Of a stretch of DNA of 64,000 bases, positions 10,096 through 27,193 are shown piece after piece. The first letter of the stretch is position 1. Each line of letters starts with the position of its first letter. The notes beneath the pieces are model-generated. The model had not been told where the DNA came from and ran no database searches. It saw only the letters and a program-made list of their open reading frames with translations. The DNA is from an uncultured Kiritimatiellota bacterium. GTDB taxonomy: Bacteria; Verrucomicrobiota; Kiritimatiellia; RFP12; UBA1067. The position numbers and the translations under genes were made by a program. Where the stretch lies: contig CAKUCX010000002.1 in NCBI GenBank assembly GCA_934643865.1, forward strand, positions 2,587 to 66,586, read 5' to 3'.

Positions 10096-10110
10096 GGAAG
10101 TTTGTTGGTT

Positions 10111-11616: not shown

Positions 11617-11634
11617 GTTTCAGAGGGGATTAAC

Positions 11635-12306
11635 ATGCGAAAATTTCGTAAAGGAATAAATCTGGAAGCGAGAATCAAATCGCTGGAGTTGACAAGGCGT
11701 TGGCTTGTGTTATGTGGTGGCTTACTGTCGTTGTTTGGTCTATCTCTTGGCGGTATGCTTTACAATGGATACTGCTTGTTGAAGGAGCGTGAAGCGGAGT
11801 TGAGGTCGGATTTTTCAAGGGTCACGATGGAATATATTTCGGCGACAAATGATTTGGCGGCGGTGCGAGCGGAGAGTCAATCTACGGCAATGACGGTCGC
11901 AAAGAAATGCGAAGAGCTGACGGGGCTGTGTTCTGAGATTGTGAGAAAAGCAGAAACAGCGAATGAGCTGGTGGAAGAGATCGGGTCGGATTGTCGTCTT
12001 GCACAAGACATGATTCGTAATCTTGATGAGTATGTTGCCAAGAGCTTAAAGACGTCTCCGCAAAGGTTTACAGTTGATGTGTCAGGGACCATGGCAAAAT
12101 GTACGCTTGTTGATGGTGTTGGCGTTCCATATTCAAGAACGGTGGCGGGGACGAGGGCAAACGCGTTGGTTGTTGTTCCTTCTGGATGTGTCTGCGTTGT
12201 GAGGCTTTCTGGGAAGATGTGTCGTGTCAGAATTCAATCTAAGATTCGCGACCGTGTTATTGTGGAGAATGGCGGTAAGATGGGTAAGGTTGAGTACTTT
12301 GATTAA
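11635..12306 (+). CDS. Small protein (223 aa) with a single N-terminal transmembrane helix (WLVLCGGLLSLFGLSLGGMLY) and a beta-rich Cys-containing C-terminal part. It is the last gene of the operon.
   Basis: ORF 18 nt downstream of the RT stop, with RBS-like gagggga. Hydrophobic stretch at aa ~22-43. Confidence 0.45.
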   Translation: MRKFRKGINLEARIKSLELTRRWLVLCGGLLSLFGLSLGGMLYNGYCLLKEREAELRSDFSRVTMEYISATNDLAAVRAESQSTAMTVAKKCEELTGLCSEIVRKAETANELVEEIGSDCRLAQDMIRNLDEYVAKSLKTSPQRFTVDVSGTMAKCTLVDGVGVPYSRTVAGTRANALVVVPSGCVCVVRLSGKMCRVRIQSKIRDRVIVENGGKMGKVEYFD

Positions 12307-12378
12307 GACAGAAAAGGCAAGCGTATGGTAATCCGCGGACATTGATAGTACTCGGGAGAAGAGAGCGGTTTAGACAAC

Positions 12379-13527
12379 ATGAAGACGCAAACGGCAACAG
12401 TAAAGATGACGAAAGCCACCATGAAGCGGCTGAAGGGCTTTGATTACAAGAAGCTCTATTTCTACATGGTGACGCTGAAACGCCGGAAAGGCCTGCGGCC
12501 ATTTTGCGAGATTACGAAGGTGAAAGAGCCGCCAAAAGACGCAAAGGGAAGACCGCGCTATCTAATCGCCAACGAGTTGACCGAGGCTTTTTCGCGTGTG
12601 ATCAGCGAGTTTCACACGAAGTGGTGGGGTATTTGGCCGATCGAATGCTTCATTATCATGCCCGATCATCTTCACCTACTGATCCACATCAAAGATACTG
12701 GCGATCAGATGGCGCTTGGGAAGTATGTTTACCAGTTGATGAAGGCGCTTGCGGTGGAATACTGGCGCTTGACGGGGCAGGATGTGGCCGGACGGGGCCG
12801 GCCACACAACACTCTTATCGAAGAGAAAGGGGGCTCTTTTAATCAGAGTGGTGTGTTGCCCGCTCCATCGTGCAACATTCCCCAGCCCGCTCCATCGGGC
12901 AACACCTTCCAGTCCGCTCCATCGGGCAACAATGCGAAGCTCGCCCCCATCTTCGAGCGCGATTGGCATGATTGGATTGTTAAGAAAGACGGGCAGCTTG
13001 CGGCCTTTACGCGCTACATTCGCGAAAACCCCGAGCGGGCTTGGCTCAGGCAACAGAACCGGCAGTATTTCGGCACGGTTCTGAAAGTTTCCTTTCTCGG
13101 GCGTGAGTGGTTCGCCTACGGCAATCTGGCGATTCTTGAGTTGCCGGTCTTGAAGGCAGTGAAGGGCCATCGCGCCACGAAGCCTGGTTCGCCCGAATGG
13201 CAGGCGCTCGTTGATGAATGTGCGCGCATCGGGCCGGGCGGCGCAGGCGTGGGCACGTTCATGAGCCCGCTGGAGAAAGAATGCGGCAACGCCATCGCCG
13301 CAGCCGGCGGCAAGTGGGTGGTCCTCTCGCCTGAGGGCTTCCATGAACGTTGGCATCCAGTGCGGCAATACGAAAAGTATTGCGCCGAAGGGCGAATGCT
13401 CTTCCTCTCGCTTTATCCGGTGATGGATCGCCAGCCGACCAAGCAGGAGCTTTACCATCGCTGCCACGAGATGGGTGATATCGCGGTGGCAGGGCTAGGT
13501 GGTAGTGACTGCGGAAATGTTGTATAA
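12379..13527 (+). CDS. IS200/IS605-family Y1 (HUH) transposase, RAYT-like, carrying an in-frame ~55-aa REP/tandem-repeat insertion between its HUH motif and its catalytic Tyr motif.
   Basis: KLYFYMVTLKRRKGL (first beta-strand, cf. YHxVWxxKYRR), IMPDHLHLLIHI (HUH) at aa ~94-104, FTRYIRENPERAW (YIxxNP Tyr motif) at aa ~210-220. HUH-to-Tyr spacing is ~114 aa, which becomes ~60 aa (canonical) once the repeat-encoded segment is removed. Confidence 0.65.
   Translation: MKTQTATVKMTKATMKRLKGFDYKKLYFYMVTLKRRKGLRPFCEITKVKEPPKDAKGRPRYLIANELTEAFSRVISEFHTKWWGIWPIECFIIMPDHLHLLIHIKDTGDQMALGKYVYQLMKALAVEYWRLTGQDVAGRGRPHNTLIEEKGGSFNQSGVLPAPSCNIPQPAPSGNTFQSAPSGNNAKLAPIFERDWHDWIVKKDGQLAAFTRYIRENPERAWLRQQNRQYFGTVLKVSFLGREWFAYGNLAILELPVLKAVKGHRATKPGSPEWQALVDECARIGPGGAGVGTFMSPLEKECGNAIAAAGGKWVVLSPEGFHERWHPVRQYEKYCAEGRMLFLSLYPVMDRQPTKQELYHRCHEMGDIAVAGLGGSDCGNVV
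12781..12934 (+). repeat. REP/MITE-like element, copy 3. The core hairpin variant tgtggccggacggggccggccaca and tail are followed by three tandem ~27-bp units (c[ca]g[ct]ccgctccatcgggcaaca-like). All of it is in-frame inside the RAYT-like transposase gene.
   Basis: Direct reading. It translates as AGRGRPHNTLIEEKGGSFNQSGVLPAPSCNIPQPAPSGNTFQSAPSGNN, which sits between the HUH motif and the catalytic Tyr motif of the transposase. Confidence 0.8.
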
Positions 13528-13544
13528 TTTTAACGGAGGCTCTT

Positions 13545-15200
13545 ATGTCATTACCAGTAAACATTGACGACCTGATCAACCACCGCAAGGTGGAGTGGGC
13601 TCGTATCGAGTACAAGGAAGGGTGGAATCCAGAGCGGATTGTCCACACGATCTGCGCTTTTGCCAATGACATCGATAACTGGGGCGGCGGATATGTCATT
13701 ATCGGCATTGCCGAGGAAAACGGGCGTCCCGTGTTCCCGGTAAAGGGGATTGGGCCGAATGAGGTGGATCATATTCAGAAGGAGTTGCTGAACGTCTGTC
13801 ATCTCATCGAGCCGGTCTATATGCCGGTCGTCGAGCCGTGCGTGTACGAGGGCAAGCATCTACTGATCGTCTGGGTGCCGGGTGGGTGTGAGCGTCCGTA
13901 TAAATGCCCAGAGCATATTGTCAAGGACGTCAAGTCGCCAAAGGCTTACTATATCCGCAAACTAGCGAGCACCGTCAAGGCGACACGTCAGGACGAGAAA
14001 GAACTCTTTGAGCTGACTGGGGATGTGCCGTTTGATGACCGCCCGAATGTTCATGCCGACATTACCGACCTCAAGATGAATCTGCTGGTCGAGTATCTAC
14101 ATGAGGTCGGAAGTGATCTCGCGAGCAATGCCGAGGACATGTCGGTCGCCGATGTAGCCCGTAACATGCAGATTGCGGCCGGACCGGCTGAATGCTTCAA
14201 GCCGAAGAATGTGGGACTTATGTTCTTCAATCCGCATCCTGAGAATTTCTTCCGTTGCGCATGGATTGATGTCGTTGACAAACCAGATCCGACCGGCGAG
14301 GGTATGGTCGAGCAAACGTTCCGGGGGCCGCTTCATGTGCAGCTCCGCTCGGCGCTTGACTACATCAGGAACCGCTTTCTGCGTGAAAAGATATTCAAAT
14401 ACGATGATCGGCCAGAGGCTGGCCGATTCTGGAACTACCCCTATCGTGCCATCGAAGAGGTGCTTGCAAACGCCGTCTATCACAAGTCGTATCGAATTGC
14501 AGAGCCTATTACCGTCGTGGTGACACCCGAGGCGATGACGATTTCAAGTCTGCCCGGGCCAGAACGGTCAATAACGGATGCCGATCTCGCTGCTTGTCGT
14601 ATGATTGGCCTCCACTATCGCAACCGTCGTATCGGAGACTTCCTCAAGGAACTCGACCTGGTTGAAGGGCGTAATACGGGCATTCCTGTTGTCGTGAATG
14701 TCATGCGTGAGAACGGGTCGCCGCCGCCAGTCTTTTCGTCTCCCGAAAATCGAGATTGGCTCACCGTCACGTTGCCGGTCAATCCTCATTTCTGTGAAAT
14801 GGAGAGTTCCATTTCACAGAGAACTGCATTGAAAACTGCATTAACTTCGCATAGAGAAACAAACAACGATAATGACGAAGAAAGTGGTGAATTGGCGGAT
14901 CATGGGCGCATTGCCGAAGTTATGACGGCTGAAGAGGAGTTGGAGCATATAAAAGTTGCGCTGAAAACTGCGCTGAAAACTGCGCTGATACACCGCCCTG
15001 CCAAGGTAGTTGAAAGAATGGGAATTTTGCTACAACAATTGCTTAGGGATAAAGATATCACGATCGTTGCGTTGGCGAGTTTTCTTGGTGCTTCCAGGAG
15101 AACTGTTCAGGAGGATATTGCCGTTTTGAAGAACCTCAAGGTTCTAAATCGCATCGGCCCAGACAATGGTGGTGAATGGGTTGTTCTTCTCCGTTTCTGA
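13545..15200 (+). CDS. AlbA_2 (Schlafen-like) domain, HATPase_c-like domain and a C-terminal winged-HTH: a putative regulator of the type common in defence islands.
   Basis: N-terminus HRKVEWARIEYKEGW (AlbA_2 E..EFK-type motif). Mid/C region LHYRNRRIGDFLKELDLVEGRNTGIPVVVNVMRENGSPPPVF (HATPase_c_4-like). ALKTALKTAL repeat, then ...ASFLGASRRTVQEDIAVLKNLKVLNRIG (wHTH). Confidence 0.6.
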   Translation: MSLPVNIDDLINHRKVEWARIEYKEGWNPERIVHTICAFANDIDNWGGGYVIIGIAEENGRPVFPVKGIGPNEVDHIQKELLNVCHLIEPVYMPVVEPCVYEGKHLLIVWVPGGCERPYKCPEHIVKDVKSPKAYYIRKLASTVKATRQDEKELFELTGDVPFDDRPNVHADITDLKMNLLVEYLHEVGSDLASNAEDMSVADVARNMQIAAGPAECFKPKNVGLMFFNPHPENFFRCAWIDVVDKPDPTGEGMVEQTFRGPLHVQLRSALDYIRNRFLREKIFKYDDRPEAGRFWNYPYRAIEEVLANAVYHKSYRIAEPITVVVTPEAMTISSLPGPERSITDADLAACRMIGLHYRNRRIGDFLKELDLVEGRNTGIPVVVNVMRENGSPPPVFSSPENRDWLTVTLPVNPHFCEMESSISQRTALKTALTSHRETNNDNDEESGELADHGRIAEVMTAEEELEHIKVALKTALKTALIHRPAKVVERMGILLQQLLRDKDITIVALASFLGASRRTVQEDIAVLKNLKVLNRIGPDNGGEWVVLLRF

Positions 15201-15210
15201 GGTGACTAAC

Positions 15211-18200
15211 ATGATGCCATCTATCGTAGGCAGAGAATTGGAAGAGCGCTTCGCGTGCCTCTTGAAGACACAGTTTTGTGTTCGGGAGGATGGTGGATTT
15301 CGCCATCTCTGGGAGGACTTTTTCTCACGTGGCGAGAAACTCATCAAGGGACCATATCTTGAGCTGCCGCTACCATACCGGAAGTCCACCGATGCCGCAG
15401 CGCTTACCCGATTTTCGCCTGCGATAGAAAAGCTGCCGTTTCCGCCATACAAACATCAGGTTCGGGCATTCGACAGGATCGGGGCCTTCAAGTCGACGCT
15501 TGTCGCGACAGGCACGGGTTCCGGCAAGACGGAATGCTTCTCGTTGCCGATCCTCGCGCACTGTGCAAAGTACGCTGGCGAGAATGGCATAAGGGCGATA
15601 TTGATCTACCCGATGAATGCGCTCGCCACAGACCAGGCAAAACGCCTCGCGGAGCTTATTTGCAAGAATGCAGGGCTTAAGGGCGTCCGAGTCGGCTTGT
15701 ATATTGGCGAGGGCAAGTCGAGACGCGGCGGGGCGCGGGCATCGCGCCCTGCCACGTGGCGCGAGGTTGGTTATGACGCAGCAACGCAGTCGTACCATGT
15801 CATCACTGACCGAGGGACTATTCTAAACGAACCGCCGCACATACTGCTTACCAACTACAAGATGCTGGACTACCTCCTTCTCCGGCCGAAGGAGAGGATA
15901 CTCTGGCGGTTCAACAAGAATCCGGACATTTTTAAGTTCCTGGCCGTCGACGAGCTTCACACATTTGACGGTGCGCAGGCCGCAGACCTTGCCTGCTTGC
16001 TGAGGCGTCTGAAGGAATACCTCAGGCTACCGGATGAGAACCTTTGCTGCATTGGAACATCCGCAACTCTCGGTTCGTCCGACAAGGCGTCCGACGGCAT
16101 AAGGAAATACGCAGAAAAAGTATTCAGCTCGTCCTTCCCGCCAGAATCGCTCGTCACGGAAGACAGATACACTTTTGACGAGATGGCCGCCGGGACCAAA
16201 GATCCGATTTTTGCCATGCCGGTGGCAAGGACGCTCTTCGGGGCACTAAAGGGTCCGTCGAAAACCCCGGACTCACTGTCGGACATCGTAGTCAAGGCGG
16301 CGGACGACGAACTCTGGGACAATGCCCCTAAGACCAAGCATGAGGCCAGCGAAATGATACTGGACTTCTGCGGCAAGCTTTCTAAGCTGCGTGCTGATAA
16401 AGGCAGGGACTACCCGGACGTCAAGTTCCAGTACTGGATTCGGGAAATGGCCAGACTCGTGGCAAACGTTCCGTACGAGTTGAGCGACGGTGGATTGCGG
16501 CCCCAGCTGCGCTTTGCCGACGACCTGGAAGACCCTGACAGGATGATAGACGGCAAGGTTCGCCACTTTCCGCTCGACAACTGCAACGTCTGCGGTGCAA
16601 CGGCATGGATCGGGCTTATCGGCCGCGACGGAGCTCATGTCGAAGGAACTCGTCGTCAGATATACAACGAGTATTTTGCGCATCACGGCGGAGAGGACGT
16701 CAGGTTCCTTTATCCGCTTGCAGGGGGCGGCGGTCACGCGGGACGCGTGACCCTACCAATCAAGAAGCTTTGCGGAAAGTGCTGCCGCCTGAACCCTGAT
16801 TCTGCCGAGAAGTGTGAATGCGGGAACGACAAGCTTATTCGCGTCGCGGTGGCCAAGAATGGCGACGCTTGCCCCTGGTGCGGTCATGACCACGGAAACA
16901 GGCTGCTCGTCGGCATGCGATCTGCAACCATGCTTTCGACATGCATATCCACGCTGACCACTTCTCCGCACAACGGCGACAAGAAGATACTGACGTTCAG
17001 CGACAATGTGCAGGACACGTCGCAACGCGCCGGATTCTTCGGAGGTCGGACGTGGGCGGCGACGTTTCGGGCGCACCTCGCGCAGTATTTCACTTCGCTT
17101 GGGGTGGAAGAAGTCGGCTACAGTAAGTTTATCGACGGCTTTTACGCCTATCTAAAGAAACGACTTTCAGACGACAGGGATATTCTTGCCGAGCTGATCC
17201 CACAGGATTTGAAATGGCTCAATGCGTGGCGCGCGCTCAAGGGGAACGATCCTCCAGTTCCCGATGCACGTACCATGAAGGCGTTGATGGCGCGCCTCAG
17301 GTGGGAGATCGCGATGGAGCTTGGCTGCGGCCAGCACCTTGGCAGAACACTTGAACGTATGGGTGTTCTGCGGCTAGAGATGGCGATCCCTGACTCTCTT
17401 GCTGAGGAGGAGCGGCGCTTTCTTGAACGGATCACCCCAGACATGGTAAAGGCTGGGGCATTTGAGGACCTGGCGTTGCTGAACTCCAAGGGCGATGCCT
17501 GGTCATCAATCCTTACGACCGCCCTGAATCGTGGCGGCATAAAGTTCATTAATGGACTTGATGCGGCTGGAATCCCCGTGTACAAGTCCAAGCGTTCCGC
17601 GGAACCTCGCGTTCCAGGCACAACCTTAGGCAAGAAGAAGTATGCCATACTGAGTGAGATAGCCGATCCGCGCGATGCAGAGATGCTTGCGCTGCTGGCG
17701 AAGAAAGGTATCGTTCGCGAGTTCACGCACACGGACGGCACTACAAAGTATTGGTATCTGTCCATAGGGTCCCTTGTCGTCCGAAAGCATCCTGATGCGT
17801 GCGCGTGCGCCGAGAATCCTTTTCACAAGCAGTATCTCAGTGGCGACATACACAGGGTTAACCCCGCTGAGCATACAGGTCTCTTGAAAAGAGAAGAACG
17901 CGAGGCCCTCGAGACCCGGTTCAAGGCAAAGGACTCGCGCAAGTGGGACCCGAACCTCATTTCCGCTACGCCGACGCTTGAGATGGGCGTGGACATCGGC
18001 GATCTTTCGAGCGTTCTTCTTTGCAGTGTCCCGCCGACGCAGTCGAAGTTCATTCAGCGTGTAGGCCGTTCCGGGCGCAGGAACGGAAGTGCGCTCAACA
18101 TCACGGTCGCGGCTTCCTCGCCGCACGACCTATACTTCTTCCGGGACCCGGCGGCGATGATCTCCGGCAGCGTGACCTCGCCTGGTGTGTTTCTTGACGC

Positions 18201-21200
18201 CAGCGCCATACTTGAGCGCCAATACCTTGCGTTCGCGCTGAGCGAATGGATGCTGGCCTCACCCGAGTGCGTGCTGCCCGATTCTATGGGCAGGATGTTC
18301 AAGGCCATTGACGACAATGGCGCATCGGCGTTTCCCAATAACTTCTTCGCCTGGTATTCCGAGGTTAAGGGAGACTTGTTTGATCGTTTCAGGGAACGGC
18401 TGGGGAACTTCAACCAGATCAAATCCCACACGCTCGATGTCCTAAACGAAGACGTCTATCACAATCCGCAGGGCAAAGCGGGTGTCTGCGGCCGGATTCA
18501 AGATGCCGTTGCCTCCGCCAAGACACTGCTAAAAAACTATGAGAACAAGAAGCGCGACCTGGCAAAGCTCAAGAAGGAAGTGTCGAAAGACCCTGGGCTT
18601 ACGGAAGAGCTCAGGAGTCAGCGAATAGAAGATGTCGACCGCGAACTGAAGGCGTATTATCAGCTGACAAGGACACTGCTTAAGAAGCCGGTCATAGAAT
18701 GGCTTTGCGACACGGCCGGGCTCCTGCCCAACTATGCGTTCCTTGAGCCGGGAGTCTCCTTGCAGACGATCCTCTGGCGCAGGGAATCGCAGGCAGGAAC
18801 CGGGAAGCTCAAGTTCGACAAGTTCGAGGTGCTGCGTCCTGCGTCATCCGGCATCACGGAACTCGTCCCCGGCTCGACATTCTACACACACGCGCACCAC
18901 ATGCTCATCGACCAGGTCGATCTTCAGAGCTACAGTGACGACGAGATTGCCGCGTGTGAATGGCGGCTATGCCCGGAATGCGACCACATCGAAAAGAACG
19001 GCACCCTCAACGCGGTCAAGTGCCCTGTCTGCGGCGCAGACTGGAGCAACAATGCTCAGGTTAGGAAACTTCTGCCCGCAAGGCAGTTCGTGACGGTCTG
19101 CCCAGACAGAAGCACCTTGAACGACGACAGCAACGATAACCGCGACAAAGAGCGCTATGAATGTCGGAAGTTCTTCGAGAGGGATGCCGGAGGTGGAAAG
19201 ATAGAGGGCTTCCGTTGCGAGGGCGAAGGGATACCGTTCGCTTTCGAGTATGTGCCGCATCTCGTTATGCGCGAGGTGAATTTCGGAAAGCGTGCCGTGA
19301 GGCGTGAGGGAGAGGTCGATGCAGTTTCCAATGGAGAACCGTTGACGGGACTCGGATTTGATGTGTGCCGAGAGTGCAACAAGGCTGTTTCCGTCGAGCC
19401 TTCAGGGGGAGCGGGCATCAGGCACGTGTCCACATGCAAGACACTGCTGTCGCCCGGCAGTGAGCCCTCGACGCCTCCGCTCAATCTGTCGTTCTATCGC
19501 GAGTACCACACGGAAGCGCTCAGGATATTCGCGCCGTTTCTCGGCGAAGACGGCGATGTGCGCATCGTGAGCTTCATGGCGGCCATACAGTTGGGACTCA
19601 AGGAGTACTTCAAGGGCGAGGTGGACCACCTCCAGATGGAGACGCAGAGCATCCCATTGCCGGGAAAGAGCATCCGCCAGCACTTCCTTATTCTCTATGA
19701 CGCTGTCCCTGGCGGCACAGGATATATCCGCCAGTTTGCAGATGGAGACCGCCCGCGACTTATCTTCGACATCTTCGAGACGGCGCTGAAGAAGCTGAAA
19801 GCGTGCTCGTGCGCTTCCGATCCAACAAAGGATGGATGCTATGAATGCCTTTACAGGTACAGGAACCAGTCGAGCCAGGGGAAGATTTCGAGGCGGGAGG
19901 CCATCAAGGTTCTTGAGGAACTTCTCCCGAGGCGAAAGCAGCTGGTCCGTGTCGCCGGTGAGGCGACCGCCGGGCTTTCAATGGCAAGCCTGATCGACAG
20001 CGAGCTTGAAAAACAGTTCGTTCTTCGGCTTGAATCTTTCTGCGCGGCAGAAACGGAGAAGGGCGCGCATATTGAAGAGGCCACCGTCAGAGGGTATGTC
20101 AAAGGCTGGCGTATGCGGCTTTCTAGAGCGTTCAGACTTGGGGCTGACCAGCAACTGCACGAGTGGGAGATCGTCCCGCAGAAAGACATGGGGCCGAGTG
20201 ACGGAGTTCTTGTCCCGTCGCGTCCTGATTTCGTGTTTTATCCGCTCGCATCGAATGGTGTCGAGAATGCGAAACCTGTGGCTGTGTTCTTGGACGGATG
20301 GGAATACCACCAGGCGACAATTGCGCTTGATGTCATAAAGCGCAAGGCGCTCATGGAGGCGGGTTATCGTGTCTGGTCGCTTGGCTGGGACGATGTGGTG
20401 GCTGCAAAGCAAGTGAAACCAGACGGGCAAGAGCCCCCTGAGTGGAGAAAGAATCTCGCTGATCCCGTTTGCCGCAAGAAGCTCGGGGCGGCTTTTTACG
20501 CAGACAGCGGGGATCGGGCTGAGGCTTGGCATGAAATCTACAACACGCCGGCGCAGGAGATGGAGAGATTCCTTGCTTATCTGGGTGTTGCGGATGACAC
20601 GCTCTTTGTTCGTCATGCGGAATTTGAGTTGGCGATGCTGCTTGTTTCGGGTGTGGACAAGTCTATGACACCGTCGATCAAAGGAATCCTTCCGCATGTC
20701 CTCTCGGCACATCTGGACGGCGACATTGAAGTCACCATAAATGAGTCCCTGTTTGCTGCGGGGGTTGGAATTGTCAAAGACGAAACGCGATTTGGGAAGA
20801 TGAAAGCGAAAATTGCGGCGGCTCTTGACGACAACGATGTCCCGGAGAAAAAGGCTTGGGAAGCGTTCGTTGGCTTCATGACGTATTTCCAGTTCTTGGA
20901 TGACGATTTGCTGGCTTTCACGTTCAAGTCACGCGACGATCAATTCTGGAGCAACCTGAAGACGGCAAAGTCCGCCGCAGGTGCCGAGTGCAATCCGGAA
21001 TGGAACGCCGCAATGGAACTGGCTGAAGGAGAGGCGCTCATAACCGGCGTTCTCCAAAAGCTCAGAGATCTATCGTTCCCTCCGCCTCTTGTGTTCGAGG
21101 ACATAACGGCGGCGGATGGGTCGGTGCTGTGCAATGCATGGCTGAAATGGCCTGACAAGAAGATAATTGTGCTTGGTGCGGATGACGCGCCTGCAGAAGT

Positions 21201-21288
21201 ATTGAAAGGCTGGCGCATCCTCCCCGTTGCCGACGGTGCGAGTCCAGAAACAGTAGCAAATCTTATCAAGGAGGCATTCAATGTCTAA
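15211..21288 (+). CDS. Giant (~2025 aa) SF2 DEAD/DEAH-type helicase (YprA/MrfA-COG1205-like) with Cys-cluster insertions, a DUF1998-like Cys region and a C-terminal DUF559/Vsr-like PD-(D/E)xK nuclease domain.
   Basis: Start taken at ATG 15211 (RBS GGTGA after the upstream stop; the track ORF begins at 15166). Motif I ATGTGSGKTECF, motif II DELHTFDG, motif III TSATLGS, RecA2 motifs ...GVDIGDLSSVLLCSVPPTQSKFIQRVGRSGRR. Cys clusters CNVCGATAW, CGKCCRLNPDSAEKCECGND, CPWCGHDHG (inserted between the RecA lobes). CPECDHIEKNGTLNAVKCPVCGADW, CRECNK...STCK, DGCYECLYRYRNQ. C-terminus PVAVFLDGWEYHQATIALDVIKRKALMEAGYRVWSLGWDDVV (DUF559 pattern VxxDGxxH...D..R..L...G..V.R....DV). Confidence 0.7.
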   Translation: MMPSIVGRELEERFACLLKTQFCVREDGGFRHLWEDFFSRGEKLIKGPYLELPLPYRKSTDAAALTRFSPAIEKLPFPPYKHQVRAFDRIGAFKSTLVATGTGSGKTECFSLPILAHCAKYAGENGIRAILIYPMNALATDQAKRLAELICKNAGLKGVRVGLYIGEGKSRRGGARASRPATWREVGYDAATQSYHVITDRGTILNEPPHILLTNYKMLDYLLLRPKERILWRFNKNPDIFKFLAVDELHTFDGAQAADLACLLRRLKEYLRLPDENLCCIGTSATLGSSDKASDGIRKYAEKVFSSSFPPESLVTEDRYTFDEMAAGTKDPIFAMPVARTLFGALKGPSKTPDSLSDIVVKAADDELWDNAPKTKHEASEMILDFCGKLSKLRADKGRDYPDVKFQYWIREMARLVANVPYELSDGGLRPQLRFADDLEDPDRMIDGKVRHFPLDNCNVCGATAWIGLIGRDGAHVEGTRRQIYNEYFAHHGGEDVRFLYPLAGGGGHAGRVTLPIKKLCGKCCRLNPDSAEKCECGNDKLIRVAVAKNGDACPWCGHDHGNRLLVGMRSATMLSTCISTLTTSPHNGDKKILTFSDNVQDTSQRAGFFGGRTWAATFRAHLAQYFTSLGVEEVGYSKFIDGFYAYLKKRLSDDRDILAELIPQDLKWLNAWRALKGNDPPVPDARTMKALMARLRWEIAMELGCGQHLGRTLERMGVLRLEMAIPDSLAEEERRFLERITPDMVKAGAFEDLALLNSKGDAWSSILTTALNRGGIKFINGLDAAGIPVYKSKRSAEPRVPGTTLGKKKYAILSEIADPRDAEMLALLAKKGIVREFTHTDGTTKYWYLSIGSLVVRKHPDACACAENPFHKQYLSGDIHRVNPAEHTGLLKREEREALETRFKAKDSRKWDPNLISATPTLEMGVDIGDLSSVLLCSVPPTQSKFIQRVGRSGRRNGSALNITVAASSPHDLYFFRDPAAMISGSVTSPGVFLDASAILERQYLAFALSEWMLASPECVLPDSMGRMFKAIDDNGASAFPNNFFAWYSEVKGDLFDRFRERLGNFNQIKSHTLDVLNEDVYHNPQGKAGVCGRIQDAVASAKTLLKNYENKKRDLAKLKKEVSKDPGLTEELRSQRIEDVDRELKAYYQLTRTLLKKPVIEWLCDTAGLLPNYAFLEPGVSLQTILWRRESQAGTGKLKFDKFEVLRPASSGITELVPGSTFYTHAHHMLIDQVDLQSYSDDEIAACEWRLCPECDHIEKNGTLNAVKCPVCGADWSNNAQVRKLLPARQFVTVCPDRSTLNDDSNDNRDKERYECRKFFERDAGGGKIEGFRCEGEGIPFAFEYVPHLVMREVNFGKRAVRREGEVDAVSNGEPLTGLGFDVCRECNKAVSVEPSGGAGIRHVSTCKTLLSPGSEPSTPPLNLSFYREYHTEALRIFAPFLGEDGDVRIVSFMAAIQLGLKEYFKGEVDHLQMETQSIPLPGKSIRQHFLILYDAVPGGTGYIRQFADGDRPRLIFDIFETALKKLKACSCASDPTKDGCYECLYRYRNQSSQGKISRREAIKVLEELLPRRKQLVRVAGEATAGLSMASLIDSELEKQFVLRLESFCAAETEKGAHIEEATVRGYVKGWRMRLSRAFRLGADQQLHEWEIVPQKDMGPSDGVLVPSRPDFVFYPLASNGVENAKPVAVFLDGWEYHQATIALDVIKRKALMEAGYRVWSLGWDDVVAAKQVKPDGQEPPEWRKNLADPVCRKKLGAAFYADSGDRAEAWHEIYNTPAQEMERFLAYLGVADDTLFVRHAEFELAMLLVSGVDKSMTPSIKGILPHVLSAHLDGDIEVTINESLFAAGVGIVKDETRFGKMKAKIAAALDDNDVPEKKAWEAFVGFMTYFQFLDDDLLAFTFKSRDDQFWSNLKTAKSAAGAECNPEWNAAMELAEGEALITGVLQKLRDLSFPPPLVFEDITAADGSVLCNAWLKWPDKKIIVLGADDAPAEVLKGWRILPVADGASPETVANLIKEAFNV

Positions 21289-23443
21289 TCAGATAATAAT
21301 CAGCCGCAAGTTCGCGGAGAAGCTCTCGGCTCTATCCCGCCCCATACAGAAGGGAGTGAACGGGATATACAGCAAGCTCGCAAAGAACGCAGACGGGGCT
21401 GGTCTAAACCTTGAGCCAATCCAAGGGGCGGCATCACCCTCGATGAAGTCCGTCAGGGTAAACGACAACTACAGGATCGTGCTTCATCAGGACTCCAAGG
21501 GAACGTTCACATTCCTGCACATCGACACGCATGACGCGGCATACGCTTGGGCGAGGCGCAACAAGTTCGAGGTGAACCCCTACACTGGCGAAGTCCAGCT
21601 TTACGTAGTTGATATCCCGGAGGTGCGGGTTGACGGATTGGCCCCAGCCACCCACGGTGAGCAGGAAGGCGCTACCACGGCAGCTGCGCCAGGCCCATTT
21701 GCGAATACGCCTTCCGATGAAGACCTCAAGCGCCTTGGCGTCCCGGAATCGCAGATTCCGCTGGTTCGCTCGCTCAAGGACGATGAAGACATCCTTGCGC
21801 ATGAAGAGGGATTCTCTCAGGGTGTGTTTGATGCTCTCTTGCTTGCGTTTGACGGGAAGAACGCAGACGAGATAATCAAGGAACTCGGCATCACTCCCAA
21901 GGGCGCGAACATCGACGACGTCGCAAAAGCCGTCGAGTCGAGCGATGCGTCCCAGGCGAACTTCGCCTTCGCGTCTTCGGAGGAGGAGCTGAACGAAATC
22001 CGCAAGGCGGCTTTGGCAAAGTGGCGAATCTTCCTTCATCCGTCGCAGCGCAAGATTGTTAAGAAAAACGCAAATGGTCCGATGAAAGTTCTCGGGGGGG
22101 CCGGAACTGGCAAGACGGTCGTCGCCATGCACAGGGCCAAGTACCTTCTTGAAAAAGTCTTTATAGCGCCTTCCGAGCGATTGCTATTCACAACCTTCAC
22201 GAAGAATCTCTGCGATGATATCGAGGCACTTCTCAAGACGATCTGCTCCGACTCCATCATGTCTCGAATTGACATACGCAATCTTGACGCATGGGCGCTG
22301 GAGTATGTACGCTCTCTTGGGATCGACGTCAATCCCCTGGTTGAGGAGAAGGATAAGACGGATCTGATGGAGGAGGCGATGGCGCTTGTTGAAGGTTCAG
22401 ATGCCTTCAAGGCCGCATTTTACCTGAGGGAACGTTCGTTGGTTATGCTTCCGAATGGAATCGACAGCATAGGTGCGTACCTCAAAGCTTCGCGTGCGGG
22501 CCTTGGCGTGCGTCTTTCGGCAGCACAGAAGCGGAATGTCTGGCAGGTGCTCGAGGCGTACAGGTCGATTTTGGCCCGCAAGGGGATGATGGATTTCGAC
22601 GAGATCGCAATCATGGCTGCCAACGAAATCAAAGCAAGGGGCAATGAGCCGTATGCTTCCGTCATAGTTGACGAAGCGCAGGACTTCAGCGCACCTGCGC
22701 TAAGACTTGTGGCGGCGCTCTCAGGCAATACGCGTGAAGCTCCCCAACCTAATTCGCTTCTTATCGTCGGAGACGCCCATCAGCGAATCTACGGCAAGAA
22801 GGCGACGCTTGGCAAATGTGGTATCAATGTCATGGGACGGTCTTCCAAGCTGAAGCTCAACTATCGTACTACGGAAAAGATTCGCAAGCGCGCAGTGGCG
22901 CTTCTTGAGGGGGTGTCTGTTGACGACCTTGACGGGGCGACAGATGACAACAAGGGATTCCGCTCGCTCGTAGTGGGCGTTGAGCCAAACGAGACGAGGT
23001 TCAAGTCGTTTGCCAAGGAGATGGACGCTGTTGTCGAAGCGATCCTCGGCTGGCAGAAATCCGACGGACGCGACTTTGCCGACTATGCGGTTCTCGTGCG
23101 CCGCAGAAATGACGTGAAGGCGGTCAAAGAGGCCCTGCGCGAACGGGGAATGAAATGCTGCGAGGTCAAGAAGGACATAACGGTGCGCGAGTCCGACAAG
23201 GACTCCGTCCGCATCGCGACCATGCATCGCTCAAAGGGCCTTGAGTTCGCGGGGGTAGTCGTGGCGGAGGTTAACGAAGGCGTGTGGCCCCTCAGACCGA
23301 AAGGCTACGACGATTTCGATCCCGTGGCAAAGAAGATAGCGGACGATTCCGAGCGTAGCCTGCTGTACGTTGCGCTCTCGCGTGCGATGAACCATGTAAT
23401 GCTTACGGGGGTTGGTACGGCACCGGCAGAGTTGGGAGCGTGA
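21281..23443 (+). CDS. UvrD/Rep-family SF1 helicase (720 aa) with an N-terminal RelE/ParE-like domain. Translationally coupled to the giant helicase (ATG at 21281 overlaps its TAA at 21286-21288).
   Basis: N-terminal ~100 aa: IIISRKFAEKLSALS...SMKSVRVNDNYRIVLHQDSKGTFTFLHIDTHDAAY (RelE/ParE fold pattern). Q-motif WRIFLHPSQRKIV, Walker A VLGGAGTGKTVVAMH, motif II VIVDEAQDFS, motif VI-like IATMHRSKGLEFAGVVV. RBS aaggagg upstream. Confidence 0.7.
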   Translation: MSNQIIISRKFAEKLSALSRPIQKGVNGIYSKLAKNADGAGLNLEPIQGAASPSMKSVRVNDNYRIVLHQDSKGTFTFLHIDTHDAAYAWARRNKFEVNPYTGEVQLYVVDIPEVRVDGLAPATHGEQEGATTAAAPGPFANTPSDEDLKRLGVPESQIPLVRSLKDDEDILAHEEGFSQGVFDALLLAFDGKNADEIIKELGITPKGANIDDVAKAVESSDASQANFAFASSEEELNEIRKAALAKWRIFLHPSQRKIVKKNANGPMKVLGGAGTGKTVVAMHRAKYLLEKVFIAPSERLLFTTFTKNLCDDIEALLKTICSDSIMSRIDIRNLDAWALEYVRSLGIDVNPLVEEKDKTDLMEEAMALVEGSDAFKAAFYLRERSLVMLPNGIDSIGAYLKASRAGLGVRLSAAQKRNVWQVLEAYRSILARKGMMDFDEIAIMAANEIKARGNEPYASVIVDEAQDFSAPALRLVAALSGNTREAPQPNSLLIVGDAHQRIYGKKATLGKCGINVMGRSSKLKLNYRTTEKIRKRAVALLEGVSVDDLDGATDDNKGFRSLVVGVEPNETRFKSFAKEMDAVVEAILGWQKSDGRDFADYAVLVRRRNDVKAVKEALRERGMKCCEVKKDITVRESDKDSVRIATMHRSKGLEFAGVVVAEVNEGVWPLRPKGYDDFDPVAKKIADDSERSLLYVALSRAMNHVMLTGVGTAPAELGA

Positions 23444-23446
23444 ATC

Positions 23447-23764
23447 ATGGCATGCCAGTCTAATCCGGAAACATACGCAATCGTGATAAGGCTCCCTCTT
23501 GAGGAGGGTGCGGCGCTGAAGTCGTTGGCTGACTCGGACGGGGTCGCGGTTAGCGCATTTGTCGCCGGAATGATTCACGAAAAGGTCAAGGGCCACAAAC
23601 TTGACGTTGCAGAACGGGCCTGGATTGCCAAGCACCTGGAGATGAATTTGATCCGCCGTGCCAAGGCCGATGCCAAGACGGCGGCCGGTTACTACAAACG
23701 CAAACGACGCGGCCGTCCGCGCAAGCCAGGTCCTAAAGGGAAGAAGCGAAAGGCAGGAAAATGA
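23447..23764 (+). CDS. Small ribbon-helix-helix (CopG/antitoxin-like) DNA-binding protein with a lysine/arginine-rich AT-hook tail (RGRPRK).
   Basis: Begins 4 nt after the helicase stop. YAIVIRLPLEEGAALKSLADSDGVAVSAFVAGMIHEKV fits the beta-strand/helix/helix RHH pattern. C-terminus KRKRRGRPRKPGPKGKKRKAGK. Confidence 0.5.
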   Translation: MACQSNPETYAIVIRLPLEEGAALKSLADSDGVAVSAFVAGMIHEKVKGHKLDVAERAWIAKHLEMNLIRRAKADAKTAAGYYKRKRRGRPRKPGPKGKKRKAGK

Positions 23765-24068
23765 ACAAGACGTTGATTCTGACAGGATGGTCGAAAACGG
23801 TCTACATGACGGCTGCTGCTGCCGCGCTTGAGGCCCTGAAGTGGGATACCGAATATTTGAAGCAGAGAAATTAGGCGTCGTGAGAATTGACTTGCGATCT
23901 TACATTGCGGAGAGGAGACAGCAGGAGGTGAATTGTGGTTGAAATTTCAGATGACGAACTTTCGCGCATTGAACGGAGAATCGTTTGGCCGTGCGAACAG
24001 GCGTTGGAAAAGAATGGTTGGGTAGTGACATGGTTCCCTGCGGATAGCGACAGGATGCTTGTCGAGAA

Positions 24069-26632: not shown

Positions 26633-27118
26633 ACTCGAAAAACAGAGACATCGAAAAACCATGAAAACACCGGTCGAAAACATCTCAGTCATTGTCCGCC
26701 CCCGCATAAACAGTGGGGGAAATCACCGTGTGGCGTCATAGTTTGACAGACCGCAACCTCCACCAGTCAAAAAGCGCGTTTCGCCCAGCAACGTCAAGGG
26801 GAGGCGCGCTTTTCGTTTTTCCGCATAGGACTTGGAGAGGTGGGCGGCGATTTCCGCCTCGGGCGCGGCGGGCGCAGACCTGCTGGCATGAGGGCCGTGT
26901 CGTAAGTGGCGCAGGCGAGACGCGCTGCGTCGAGCTGACGATGGCACCGCAGCTCTTCGAGCTGACAAGCGCGAGGAATGTCGTCTTCCGCGGGCTTGTG
27001 TTCGAGACCTGTCGCGCTTCAGCCATCCGCATGAAGGACTGCGCGCACTGCCTCGGCGCGTTTACGTGTTTTTGCAGTTGCGCGGTGAATCCTGTTTTGG
27101 TAAACTGTTCTCTCGTTC

Positions 27119-27193
27119 GGCGAGATAGCTCAACGGTAGAGCATCAGAATCATAATCTGCTGGTTGAGGGTTCGAATCCCCCTCTCGCCACCA
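27119..27193 (+). tRNA. tRNA with anticodon CAU (Met elongator or Ile2/lysidine type), 75 nt including the encoded CCA.
   Basis: Manual fold: acceptor GGCGAGA/TCTCGCC, D-arm GCTC-AACGGTA-GAGC, anticodon arm TCAGA-ATCATAA-TCTGC (one mismatch), T-arm GAGGG-TTCGAAT-CCCCC, discriminator A, CCA. G1-C72 is paired, so this is not a classical initiator. Confidence 0.7.

What the first reader, a model, noticed from the sequence alone, without database searches (positions are those of the whole stretch)
21281..23764. Toxin-antitoxin-like logic inside a helicase: RelE/ParE-fold N-terminus on a UvrD helicase, followed by an RHH (antitoxin-type) gene
Seen in sequence: the first ~100 aa of the UvrD-like protein follow the RelE/ParE pattern (..KSVRVNDNYRIVLHQDSKGTFTFLHIDTHDAAY). 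The next gene (4-nt spacing) is a ribbon-helix-helix protein with an AT-hook tail. RHH is the classical antitoxin/DNA-binding partner of RelE/ParE toxins. Inference: the helicase may carry a fused mRNA-interferase or gyrase-poison-like effector domain that is kept in check or autoregulated by the RHH protein, a layout suggestive of abortive-infection control. A 37-aa ORF (23761-23874) overlaps the RHH stop and could be a further small component.
Basis: partly seen in the sequence, partly recalled or inferred. Interest (0 to 1): 0.6.

Follow-up and report, generated by a model that had tools for sequence, protein, structure and literature searches.

The report
ArmD helicase of ARMADA defence system
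The helicase with a toxin-like front end is real, but it is ArmD, the fourth protein of a recently described anti-phage system (ARMADA type II), and the small DNA-binding gene after it is a local add-on, not its antitoxin.

Summary
Residues 1-110 of the 720-aa UvrD-like protein (21281-23443) fold as RelE/ParE: AlphaFold pLDDT is 86.7, and the top Foldseek PDB hits are RelE, YoeB, YafQ, ParE and HigB. The next gene (23447-23764) is plausibly a ribbon-helix-helix protein with an AT-hook tail.

The toxin-antitoxin reading does not hold. [quoted passage not shown] All four window proteins match E. coli O157 ArmA-D end to end (ArmD 37% identity, E 1e-136).

- In 80 genomes the RelE-UvrD gene sits directly after the ~2100-aa ArmC helicase.
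- 57 non-redundant loci have no conserved downstream partner.
- RHH homologues follow ArmD only in close relatives. Elsewhere they follow unrelated operons.
- Published work shows ARMADA II needs only armABCD and is non-abortive.

Two things go beyond the paper. The domain's most conserved residues (E45, R59, R65, H84, Y88) match the YoeB catalytic set, and this domain has not been mutated experimentally. The armB-armC junction carries 9 kb of other defence genes here and variable cargo in many other genomes.

This is a new member of a known kind, of low to moderate interest.

The parts
1..1332 (+). C-terminal 443 aa of ArmA (BrxHII/Snf2-like helicase). The gene is cut by the window start, and its stop overlaps the armB start by 8 nt.
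   Evidence: BLASTP against E. coli Sakai ArmA (ECs_5261) residues 577-952: 26% identity, E 3e-22, running to the C-terminus. No Pfam hit for this part. The helicase core lies outside the window.
1325..6181 (+). ArmB, a 1618-aa PglX/DrmMI-like N6-adenine DNA methyltransferase (NPPW at aa 988-991).
   Evidence: PADLOC REase_MTase_IIG E 6e-208 and DrmMI E 4e-43. Pfam Eco57I and N6_Mtase. 35% identity over about 1730 columns to E. coli ArmB. Homologues lie upstream of ArmC in at least 28 fetched loci.
6200..15200 (+). About 9 kb of embedded cargo that splits armB from armC; it is not part of ARMADA. Contents: a 411-aa unknown plus a Ppl-like PHP-SMC ATPase (6200-10095), an AbiP2 reverse transcriptase (10102-11616), a 223-aa coiled-coil protein, a 382-aa protein with weak Y1-transposase similarity, and a Schlafen-AlbA_2/HATPase_c_4/HTH protein (13545-15200).
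   Evidence: PADLOC AbiP2 E 1e-178 and Ppl E 2e-27. Pfam. GC is 44.6-47.2% for 6200-12306 against about 56% for armC and armD. The same junction is empty in 10 other loci and filled with different cargo in 26.
15166..21288 (+). ArmC, a 2040-aa YprA-family DEAD/DEAH helicase with an MZB (DUF1998) Zn domain and a C-terminal Vsr/PD-(D/E)xK-like region.
   Evidence: Pfam DEAD, Helicase_C and MZB. PADLOC DruE1/DruE3 E about 1e-87. 29% identity over 1770 columns to E. coli ArmC. Only a faint REase_MTES_1575 hit for the nuclease part.
21281..21610 (+). ArmD residues 1-110: a RelE/ParE-fold domain with a family-specific b5-b6 hairpin.
   Evidence: AlphaFold2 pLDDT 86.7. Foldseek hits to RelE, YoeB, YafQ and ParE. 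Profile search against PDB. Conservation in 121 sequences: E45 117, R59 121, R65 121, H84 121, Y88 106, W90 120, Q106 115.
21611..22030 (+). ArmD residues 111-250: a low-complexity linker plus a conserved helical region of unknown function.
   Evidence: Alignments in the exhaustive HMMER search span aa 1-250 in most ~700-aa family members. No Pfam family.
22031..23443 (+). ArmD residues 251-720: a GajB-like UvrD/SF1 helicase core (Walker A K278, Walker B D464).
   Evidence: Pfam UvrD-helicase E 1.7e-25 and UvrD_C. PADLOC GajB E 8e-32. The alignment to E. coli ArmD places K278 and D464 opposite K266 and D454, which were mutated in PMC12458937.
23447..23764 (+). A 105-aa ribbon-helix-helix-like protein with a third helix and a C-terminal AT-hook (RGRPRKPGP). 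It is a lineage-specific gene appended to the operon.
   Evidence: for the fold. for its varied genomic contexts. GC 56.9%, like armD.
23761..23874 (+). A 37-aa ORF overlapping the RHH stop, probably not a gene.
   Evidence: No family hit. Conserved only in near-identical loci; in L091-L093 only the first 12 codons match.

Best explanation
Shown here.
- The 720-aa protein is ArmD, the last gene of an ARMADA type II anti-phage system (armA-armB-[9 kb of inserted cargo]-armC-armD). The system sits on a lower-GC island next to a tRNA-Met gene in a ~70% GC genome, probably a Kiritimatiellae gut bacterium.
- ArmD has three parts: an N-terminal RelE/ParE-fold domain, a conserved linker region, and a GajB-like SF1 (UvrD) helicase.
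- The RelE-like domain is a fixed hallmark of the whole ArmD family. It is not a toxin paired with a separate antitoxin.
- armD is translationally coupled to armC by an 8-nt overlap here and a 4-nt overlap in E. coli.

From the literature on the E. coli orthologues.
- All four Arm proteins are needed for defence.
- The ArmD Walker A lysine is essential.
- Defence is direct and non-abortive.

Inferred.
- ArmB marks host DNA by methylation.
- ArmA and ArmC (helicase plus Vsr-type nuclease) attack unmodified phage DNA.
- ArmD uses its SF1 motor on DNA ends or ssDNA intermediates and brings the RelE-like module to them.
- The residues equivalent to the YoeB catalytic set (E45, R65, H84, Y88, plus R59) are the most conserved positions of the domain. 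I therefore think the module more likely than not (about 0.5) still binds or cleaves RNA, for example transcripts, primers or R-loop RNA on phage DNA, while held on the helicase rather than acting as a free ribosome-dependent toxin.
- The RHH/AT-hook gene is a lineage-specific DNA-binding protein that travels at the 3' ends of several different operons in related bacteria. It is most likely a small regulator or nucleoid-type protein, not an antitoxin for ArmD.
For: Identity and context.
- Each window protein matches its E. coli O157:H7 Sakai counterpart end to end: ArmD 37% identity over 720 aa (E 1e-136), with the alignment starting at residue 4 and so including the N-domain; ArmC; ArmB; ArmA C-terminus.
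- The Sakai locus has the order zorABE-druHE-armABCD, as described for EDL933 z5899-z5902 and for the validated NCTC 12900 and ATCC 8739 systems.
[quoted passage not shown] Its own evidence is an HHpred hit to 3BPQ_D at E 0.0085.
- Among the fetched genome loci that carry the N-domain and have upstream sequence, nearly all have the ~2100-aa ArmC homologue ending within -11 to +54 nt of the armD start. ArmB homologues lie upstream.

The N-domain.
- Fold evidence.
- The N-terminal 250 aa are found in 1,243 50%-identity clusters. Nearly all full-length members are ~700-aa UvrD proteins. One JGI annotation already reads "helicase/mRNA-degrading endonuclease RelE" (P0090).
- Conserved residues and the HMM alignment to YoeB, which pairs E45, R59 and R65 with YoeB E46, R59 and R65.

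No antitoxin partner.
- Downstream genes are unrelated across loci.
- RHH contexts vary.

Cargo insertion.
Against: - No biochemical activity of any ArmD RelE-like domain has been reported, and the published mutants touch only Walker A and B. The RNase role is therefore inference.
- Y88 is replaced by Met in 10 of 121 sequences and E45 is replaced in 4.
- The H84/Y88 to YoeB H83/Y84 correspondence rests on position after strand b4, not on a computed superposition.
- In EHEC the armD deletion had a milder phenotype than the armA, armB or armC deletions, so ArmD may be auxiliary.
- The ArmA helicase core is outside the window, and the ArmC nuclease domain gave only a faint Pfam hit.
- The armB-armC split by 9 kb departs from the "strict gene order" stated in the paper, and whether the split system is still co-expressed is unknown.
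- The tight spacing and matching GC of the RHH gene leave room for a local regulatory link to the operon.
Confidence: 0.85

Rival explanations
1. The N-terminal RelE/ParE domain is a toxin-type effector held in check or autoregulated by the downstream RHH protein, giving a TA-like, abortive-infection switch built into a helicase.
For: - RelE fold and YoeB-like residues.
- The RHH-like fold of the next gene, with faint RelB-antitoxin and DUF6290 hits.
- The genes are 3 nt apart and have the same GC.
- The pairing also occurs in close relatives L091-L093.
Against: - The RHH gene is absent next to ArmD in 80 other genomes and in E. coli.
- The same RHH family follows unrelated operons.
- Validated ARMADA II needs only armABCD and is non-abortive.
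- Strains that keep armD but lack other arm genes grow normally.
- In classical RelBE/YefM-YoeB modules, as established in the TA literature, the antitoxin is conserved with the toxin and usually lies upstream. Neither is true here.
Confidence: 0.04
2. The RelE-like domain is a catalytically dead scaffold. It would be a protein-protein adaptor docking ArmD onto ArmC, or a nucleic-acid-binding clamp. Its conserved residues would serve binding rather than cleavage.
For: - Strictly conserved residues outside the RelE core (W90, A91, T102, G103, Q106) and an extra b5-b6 hairpin suggest a family-specific interface.
- Translational coupling with armC.
- Y88 is Met in 10 of 121 sequences.
- Defence is non-abortive, with no sign of global translation shut-off.
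- A RelE domain tethered to a 600-aa helicase is unlikely to enter the ribosomal A site (inference).
Against: R59, R65 and H84 are invariant and E45 is 97% conserved. These are the positions that matter for catalysis in YoeB. A pure scaffold would be expected to drift at these positions, as ParE-type members of the fold do (my knowledge of the family, not tested here).
Confidence: 0.35
3. The RHH/AT-hook protein is a transcriptional regulator of this operon copy, or of the downstream hydrolase genes. It would be a local regulatory add-on rather than either an antitoxin or a pure hitch-hiker.
For: - RHH proteins are typically operator-binding repressors (established knowledge).
- It is probably co-transcribed with armD: 3-nt gap and no terminator-like site between them.
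- The family sits at the 3' end of several defence operons.
Against: - One homologue lies among flavin-reductase, nitroreductase and DXP-synthase genes.
- No operator-like repeat was identified.
- A regulator at the distal end of a ~23-kb gene array is an unusual arrangement.
- No experiment exists.
Confidence: 0.3
4. The helicase is a stand-alone Gabija-type (GajB) or housekeeping UvrD/Rep/PcrA helicase, unrelated to its neighbours.
For: The best PADLOC models are GajB (E 8e-32), and NCBIfam gives weak PcrA, Rep and UvrD hits.
Against: - All NCBIfam scores are far below the curated cut-offs (89 bits against a 911-bit cut-off for PcrA).
- There is no GajA next to it.
- The linkage to ArmC is constant.
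- It matches E. coli ArmD end to end.
Confidence: 0.01

Closest known systems
ArmD of ARMADA type II (E. coli NCTC 12900 / ATCC 8739 / O157:H7 z5902 = ECs_5264; Bell et al., bioRxiv 2025, PMC12458937)
   Same: Same three-part architecture: RelE-like N-domain, conserved linker, GajB-like UvrD core. 37% identity over the full length. It is the last gene of the system and overlaps the armC stop. It sits with ArmA, ArmB and ArmC homologues in the same order, on a tRNA-adjacent island.
   Different: It comes from a distant, high-GC host. armB and armC are separated by 9 kb of other defence genes, where the E. coli genes are contiguous. An RHH/AT-hook gene is appended that E. coli lacks. There is no co-resident Druantia III or Zorya II in the window.
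YoeB/RelE type II toxins (e.g. E. coli YoeB, T. thermophilus RelE 2khe, M. jannaschii RelE3 3bpq)
   Same: Same fold (TM 0.72-0.80 on the target). The residues corresponding to YoeB E46, R65 and H83/Y84 are conserved.
   Different: It is fused to a helicase rather than being an ~85-95-aa free protein. It has an extra b5-b6 hairpin with invariant W90, G103 and Q106. It has no conserved cognate antitoxin gene. No toxicity is evident in E. coli strains that keep armD.
GajB of Gabija
   Same: The SF1/UvrD helicase core is similar (PADLOC GajB E 8e-32; the paper reports HHpred 8IUD_A at 6e-32).
   Different: GajB has no RelE-like domain and works with the GajA OLD-family nuclease. Here the partner is a YprA-family helicase-nuclease.
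DruE of Druantia (types I-III) and DrmA/DrmB of DISARM
   Same: ArmC shares the DEAD + DUF1998/MZB architecture and scores best against the DruE models in PADLOC.
   Different: No DruH or DruA-D partners are present. The system has a PglX-like methyltransferase, a Snf2-like helicase and ArmD instead. PADLOC 2.0 (2023) predates ARMADA, so it labels ArmC as DruE.
RHH antitoxins and repressors (RelB, CopG, Arc, VapB, AtaR)
   Same: The strand-helix-helix core is predicted, and the best structural matches are Arc and VapB.
   Different: It has an additional long third helix and an AT-hook tail, and no toxin-binding C-terminal region is recognisable. It is not linked to one partner gene.

Membership tests
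ARMADA type II defence system | [quoted passage not shown] | tested here: met
   The 8-nt overlap with armC is seen.
ARMADA type II defence system | ArmC: a YprA-family DEAD/DEAH helicase with DUF1998/MZB | tested here: met
   Pfam DEAD, Helicase_C and MZB. 29% identity over 1770 columns to E. coli ArmC.
ARMADA type II defence system | ArmC C-terminal Vsr-type PD-(D/E)xK nuclease domain | tested here: inconclusive
   Only a faint REase_MTES_1575 hit (E 0.082). The region aligns with E. coli ArmC, but motifs were not verified structurally.
ARMADA type II defence system | ArmB: a PglX-like N6-adenine methyltransferase with the NPPW motif | tested here: met
   Pfam Eco57I and N6_Mtase. NPPW at aa 988-991 aligned with the E. 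coli motif containing N971.
ARMADA type II defence system | ArmA: a BrxHII/Snf2-like helicase upstream of ArmB | tested here: inconclusive
   Only the C-terminal 443 aa are in the window. They match the E. coli ArmC-terminal... ArmA C-terminus (E 3e-22), but the helicase core lies outside the window.
ARMADA type II defence system | Strict, contiguous gene order armA-armB-armC-armD | tested here: not met
   The order is kept, but armB and armC are 9 kb apart with six unrelated genes between them. The same junction is interrupted in 26 of 36 informative loci.
ARMADA type II defence system | Protection against phages that requires all four genes | not testable with these tools
   Known only for the E. 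coli systems.
RelE/ParE toxin superfamily (fold level) | Compact b1-a1-a2-b2-b3-b4 fold | tested here: met
RelE/YoeB mRNA interferases (functional family) | Catalytic residues (YoeB E46, R65, H83, Y84) | tested here: inconclusive
   E45, R59 and R65 align by HMM with YoeB E46, R59 and R65. H84 and Y88 are matched by position only. All are highly conserved. No 3D superposition or activity data.
RelE/YoeB mRNA interferases (functional family) | Ribosome-dependent mRNA cleavage and growth arrest when free | not testable with these tools
   Indirect evidence against free toxicity: arm deletion mutants that retain armD grow normally.
Type II toxin-antitoxin module | A cognate antitoxin gene conserved next to the toxin | tested here: not met
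   57 loci give 53 unrelated downstream genes. RHH homologues occur in only the 6 near-identical loci among the 88 scanned, plus the close relatives L091-L093.
Ribbon-helix-helix DNA-binding proteins | N-terminal strand followed by two helices with a G-x-S/T/N turn | tested here: inconclusive
   The model and sequence pattern fit. The best Foldseek hit is Arc at probability 0.97, but E is 0.87. Pfam and NCBIfam hits are below threshold.
AT-hook motif | R-G-R-P core flanked by basic residues | tested here: met
   KRKRRGRPRKPGPKGKKRK at aa 84-102. G89 and R92 are invariant, and R90, P91, K93, P94, G95 and P96 are at least 90% conserved across the family.
Gabija (GajA/GajB) | GajB helicase paired with a GajA OLD-family ATPase-nuclease | tested here: not met
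   There is no GajA-like gene adjacent to the helicase. The neighbours are ArmC and the RHH gene.

The most novel reading that the evidence does not exclude
The RelE-like domain of ArmD may be an active endoribonuclease that works while tethered to the SF1 helicase. It would cut RNA associated with phage DNA (transcripts, primers or R-loops) without the ribosome. The family-specific b5-b6 hairpin (invariant W90, G103, Q106) would act as a built-in gate that replaces a separate antitoxin. In that case ARMADA II would combine methylation-guided DNA attack with local RNA cleavage. The conserved E45/R59/R65/H84/Y88 set gives five directly testable positions: E48, R62, R68, H88 and Y92 in E. coli ArmD. 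A weaker add-on is that in this lineage the RHH/AT-hook protein tunes the operon.
Probability: 0.2. Interest if true: 0.6.

Novelty: new member of a known kind. Interest (0 to 1): 0.27.

Why it matters
The RelE-on-a-helicase fusion is not a new discovery.

Three points remain useful.
1. The role of the RelE-like domain has not been tested experimentally. This analysis shows it is kept in more than 1,200 protein clusters with a YoeB-like catalytic set. That turns "what does the toxin domain do in a non-abortive system?" into a simple mutagenesis experiment in the E. coli model.
2. The armB-armC junction appears to be a recurrent landing site for other defence and TA genes. This qualifies the "strict gene order" description and matters for automated detection of ARMADA.
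3. Current PADLOC models call ArmC "DruE" and ArmD "GajB", so loci like this one will be mis-annotated as Druantia plus Gabija fragments.

Tried and rejected
- Single-sequence searches of the N-domain were uninformative. Pfam gave only a faint ParE_like hit, NCBIfam gave nothing, and phmmer against PDB gave spurious acyl-CoA synthetase and kinase hits. Family profiles and structure prediction were needed.
- The word-index homology search with the N-domain alone found only 4 close fragments.
- The search for related loci with the broad alignment A1 failed because it had no conserved stretch. A narrower alignment A2 worked, but it biased the 80 loci towards Desulfobacterota-type relatives.
- EDL933 record NC_002655.2 is not in the E. 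coli collection. The Sakai genome was used instead.
- I tested whether the 37-aa ORF and the stop-ridden region 23761-24093 are remnants of the Fic-like_C gene that follows the RHH gene in L091. tblastn found nothing.
- Promoter and terminator scans around armD and the RHH gene were at background level and say nothing.
- Considered and rejected: Druantia type III (no DruH, and the upstream partner is a methyltransferase); Gabija (no GajA); DISARM (ArmC is a fused DrmA/B-like protein, there is no DrmC PLD gene, and E. coli ARMADA matches better).
- I could not examine 3D coordinates, so I could not test whether the b5-b6 hairpin covers the putative active site.
Full report
**1. What is at the coordinates.**
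The window carries a lower-GC block (about 44-57% GC) from position 1 to about 27,000. It abuts a tRNA-Met gene (27119-27193) and is followed by ~70% GC sequence. All long ORFs in the block are on the + strand. The finding covers three ORFs.
- A 720-aa ORF at 21281-23443. Its ATG overlaps the stop of a 2040-aa ORF (15166-21288) by 8 nt.
- A 105-aa ORF at 23447-23764, which begins 3 nt after the helicase stop.
- A 37-aa ORF at 23761-23874, which overlaps the 105-aa ORF's stop by 4 nt.

**2. The N-terminal domain has the RelE/ParE fold.**
Pfam places the UvrD helicase domains at residues 253-709 and leaves residues 1-250 unassigned. Alone, residues 1-120 give only a faint ParE_like hit (E 0.092), and phmmer against PDB gives noise. 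Family-level evidence is consistent.
- A full-length homology search returned 6,976 proteins. The listed ones are mostly 700-740 aa and cover 98-100% of the query down to 39% identity. One has the JGI name [quoted passage not shown].
- An exhaustive HMMER search with residues 1-250 found 1,243 clusters at E<=1e-3. In most listed hits the alignment spans the whole 250 residues, and nearly all full-length hits are ~700-aa proteins.
- Of 36 N-domains scanned one by one, 18 touch ParE_like, 10 HigB-like, 8 Gp49 and 2 YoeB.
- A profile of these 36 sequences ranks YoeB (E 0.009), archaeal RelE 1wmi (0.046), RelE3 and HigB at the top of PDB sequences.
- AlphaFold2 on that alignment gives pLDDT 86.7 and pTM 0.78. 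The order is b1(5-7), a1(9-16), a2(20-35), b2(55-59), b3(64-70), b4(76-83), a3(84-93), followed by an extra hairpin b5(94-98)/b6(105-109).
- In Foldseek against PDB, the top hits are almost exclusively RelE, YoeB, YafQ, ParE2 or HigB. The best is T. thermophilus RelE 2khe (E 5.7e-5, probability 1.00, TM 0.76 normalised to the target, rmsd 2.4 A over 87 columns).

**3. Conserved residues.**
I aligned 121 non-redundant N-domains, including E. coli ArmD. Counts out of 121 are:
- R59, R65 and H84: invariant.
- W90: 120. A87: 118. E45: 117. A91: 116. Q106: 115.
- G103: 110. D85: 109. Y88: 106, with Met in 10. T102: 106. S57: 105. Y64: 104.

An HMM of the family aligns "GlnyEkik...SvRvdqnyRaiv" with E. 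coli YoeB "GKPEPLKH...SRRITEEHRLVY". This places E45, R59 and R65 opposite YoeB E46, R59 and R65. From my knowledge of YoeB (Kamada and Hanaoka 2005), its catalytic residues are E46, R65, H83 and Y84. H84 and Y88 follow strand b4 as H83 and Y84 do in YoeB. That last correspondence is positional inference, not a computed superposition. The pattern looks like an RNase-type member of the fold rather than a ParE-type one. W90, A91, T102, G103 and Q106 belong to helix a3 and the extra hairpin, and they are specific to this helicase family.

**4. The conserved partners lie upstream, not downstream.**
- Looking up a 39%-identical homologue (P0085) showed it directly after a 2130-aa DEAD+Helicase_C+MZB protein with a 4-nt overlap, and no RHH gene after it.
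- I fetched 80 genome loci encoding the N-domain, mostly Desulfobacterota but also Chloroflexota, Synergistota, Bacteroidota-Rhodothermia, Acidobacteriota, Cyanobacteriota and an archaeal MAG. I then scanned their ORFs with the window's proteins.
- The 2040-aa protein has homologues in 79 of the 88 loci held at that point.
- Wherever upstream sequence exists, it almost always ends within -11 to +54 nt of the helicase start.
- Homologues of the window's 1618-aa methyltransferase (1325-6181) occur upstream of that gene in 28 loci.
- RHH homologues were found only in the six near-identical copies of this locus.
- In 57 non-redundant loci the gene after the helicase falls into 53 unrelated sequence clusters, and about half lie on the opposite strand.

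**5. Identification as ARMADA type II.**
A literature search led to Bell et al., bioRxiv 2025 (PMC12458937). That paper defines ARMADA type II as four genes:
- ArmA, a BrxHII/Snf2-like helicase.
- ArmB, a PglX-like methyltransferase.
- ArmC, a YprA-like DEAD/DEAH helicase with DUF1998 and a C-terminal Vsr-type nuclease.

Their evidence for the RelE assignment is an HHpred hit to RelE3 3BPQ_D at E 0.0085. They showed that all four genes are needed, and that ArmD K266A abolishes protection while D454N reduces it. They also reported that defence is direct and non-abortive. No mutation in the RelE-like domain is listed.

A second preprint maps armABCD to z5899-z5902 of E. coli EDL933. It reports normal growth of the deletion mutants without phage and a milder phenotype for the armD deletion.

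I fetched the orthologous locus of E. coli O157:H7 Sakai (zorABE, druH, druE, then ECs_5261-5264) and compared proteins.

| Window protein | E. coli Sakai match | Identity and span |
|---|---|---|
| 21281-23443 | ArmD (ECs_5264) | 37% over 720 columns, E 1e-136, starting at residue 4 |
| 15166-21288 | ArmC | 29% over 1770 columns |
| 1325-6181 | ArmB | 35% over about 1730 columns |
| 1-1332 (truncated ORF) | ArmA residues 577-952 | 26%, E 3e-22 |

The alignment puts window K278 and D464 opposite the mutated K266 and D454, and ArmB NPPW at 988-991. PADLOC 2.0 predates ARMADA and therefore labels these proteins DruE, GajB and type IIG/DrmMI.

**6. The RHH gene.**
- The 105-aa protein has the pattern expected of an RHH: Y10-AIVIR, helix, G32-x-x-V-S36, helix. 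It ends in KRKRRGRPRKPGPKGKKRK.
- Database hits are below threshold: DUF6290 at E 0.056 and RelB_antitoxin at 0.089.
- The AlphaFold model (pLDDT 82.8) has an extended N-terminal segment, two helices, a long third helix and a disordered tail.
- Its best PDB matches are Arc repressor (probability 0.97, TM 0.68), VapB, AtaR, Reg576, AvtR and MatP, all RHH proteins, but E-values are near 1.
- The family is small (54 clusters) and its contexts differ.

| Locus | Context of the RHH homologue |
|---|---|
| L091-L093 (close relatives) | After ArmD, followed by a Fic-like_C gene |
| L090 | After a 1796-aa protein next to a MAD7 gene |
| L095 | After a SEFIR/TIR...ATPase operon |
| L094 | Between nitroreductase and RibD_C genes |

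It is therefore a mobile small DNA-binding gene of this bacterial lineage, not a dedicated partner of the RelE-like domain. Its function is open. A local regulator is the most economical guess.

The 37-aa ORF has no family hit, and only its first 12 codons are conserved where the downstream gene differs. The region 23761-24093 is full of stops in all frames and does not match the Fic-like_C gene.

**7. How it most likely works.**
- Shown here: the domain architecture, family-wide conservation, gene linkage and translational coupling.
- Taken from the literature for the E. coli orthologues: the four-gene requirement, the need for ArmD ATP binding, and the non-abortive outcome.
- Inferred, step 1: ArmB provides a self mark on host DNA.
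- Inferred, step 2: ArmA and ArmC act as the helicase-nuclease machinery on unmodified DNA.
- Inferred, step 3: ArmD loads on DNA ends or ssDNA intermediates through its SF1 motor and carries the RelE-like module with it.
- Inferred, step 4: the module either cleaves or binds RNA locally, or docks ArmD to ArmC.

I put about even odds on retained nuclease or RNA-binding chemistry, given the invariant R59, R65 and H84 and the 97% conserved E45. I put about one in three on a purely structural role. A free, ribosome-dependent toxin held by an antitoxin is very unlikely. That follows from the missing partner, the normal growth of mutants that still carry armD, and the non-abortive phenotype.

**8. 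What differs from the published description.**
The paper states a strict gene order. Here the order is kept, but armB and armC are separated by about 9 kb holding six genes.
- An unknown 411-aa protein plus a Ppl-like PHP-SMC ATPase.
- An AbiP2 reverse transcriptase (PADLOC E 1e-178).
- A coiled-coil protein.
- A 382-aa protein with weak Y1-transposase similarity.
- A Schlafen-AlbA_2/HATPase_c_4/HTH protein.

The 6200-12306 part is 44.6-47.2% GC against about 56% for armA, armC and armD, which fits later insertion.

Among 36 other loci with enough upstream sequence, armB abuts armC in 10. In 15 loci, 1-3 kb of other genes intervene. In 11 loci no armB lies within about 3.5 kb. The intervening genes include:
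- PtuA/AbiL/HEC-01-type ATPases.
- Schlafen-AlbA_2 proteins.
- IrrE-HTH pairs.
- MqsRA and HicAB modules.
- DUF1016/YhcG, RloB, SocA and Fic-like_C.

The ARMADA paper does not mention this. My sample is biased by the search pattern, and independent insertion events were not counted.

**9. Verdict.**

The object is a new, distant member of a known kind (ARMADA type II ArmD). It has two local peculiarities, a cargo-split operon and an appended RHH/AT-hook gene. Interest is low to moderate. The open and now easily testable question is what the conserved RelE-like active-site residues do in a non-abortive defence system.

Noticed in passing
window 6200-15200 (between armB 1325-6181 and armC 15166-21288); also L013, L015, L020, L022, L026, L029, L031-L033, L041, L044, L066, L069, L082, L084: The armB-armC junction of ARMADA II looks like a recurrent landing site for other defence and TA genes. 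Here it holds 9 kb (Ppl-like, AbiP2 RT, Schlafen-AlbA_2 and others). In 36 other informative loci it is empty in 10, holds 1-3 kb of varied cargo in 15, and holds more than 3.5 kb in 11. The ARMADA paper speaks of a strict gene order and does not mention this.
   Followed up: partly
window 4001-6181 (3' third of armB): GC falls to about 45% in the last third of armB, against 54-58% in its first two thirds. This resembles the adjacent inserted cargo. It could reflect a swapped C-terminal (target-recognition?) region acquired together with the cargo.
   Followed up: no
window 12379-13527: A 382-aa protein has weak, sub-threshold similarity to REP-associated tyrosine (IS200/Y1) transposases (NCBIfam E 9.6e-8, 32 bits against an 80-bit cut-off; Pfam Y1_Tnp E 0.058). 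It lies inside the cargo block and might relate to how the cargo moves.
   Followed up: no
window 6200-10095: The Ppl-like PHP + SMC/AAA_21 ATPase (7432-10095) is preceded by an unannotated 411-aa ORF (6200-7435) with a 4-nt overlap. This suggests a two-gene Ppl variant.
   Followed up: no
window 10102-12306: A full-length AbiP2-type reverse transcriptase (PADLOC E 1e-178) is followed by a 223-aa coiled-coil protein with no family assignment.
   Followed up: no
window 13545-15200; L014, L047/L058-type loci: A Schlafen AlbA_2 + HATPase_c_4 + HTH protein sits immediately upstream of armC. The same domain combination recurs as cargo at this junction in at least 2-3 other loci.
   Followed up: partly
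L090 6001-6318, L094 1744-2106, L095 4040-4408: The RHH/AT-hook family (conserved M-x-C-Q-x-N-P-x-T-Y start and GYYKRKRRGRPRKPGP tail) sits at the 3' end of unrelated operons (MADS-like, SEFIR/TIR-ATPase) and among metabolic genes. It may be a lineage-specific small nucleoid or regulatory protein. An AT-hook protein on lower-GC islands of a 70% GC host could even act like a xenogeneic silencer, which is pure speculation.
   Followed up: partly
L090 6319-6684: The non-coding DNA after the RHH gene contains a repeated motif, GGGTCGGAGCT(C/T)ATTGATACAGT, twice, plus a third partial copy (ATTGATACAGT).
   Followed up: no
window 24069-26356: Two lower-GC (46-47%) genes lie between the ARMADA system and the tRNA-Met. 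One is a 412-aa alpha/beta hydrolase (Abhydrolase_6, weak DUF900). The other is a 371-aa protein with no family hit. Their start codons are uncertain, and gene callers differ between loci L001-L006.
   Followed up: no
window 27000-28200: The island boundary: GC jumps from about 50% to about 69% at tRNA-Met 27119-27193, and a tRNA-Leu lies at 28032-28113 (-). The other island end is outside the window because armA is cut at position 1.
   Followed up: no
window 15166-23443 (annotation issue): PADLOC-DB 2.0 labels ArmC as DruE1/DruE3 (E about 1e-87) and ArmD as GajB (E 8e-32). Automated annotation would therefore report fragments of Druantia and Gabija instead of ARMADA II.
   Followed up: yes
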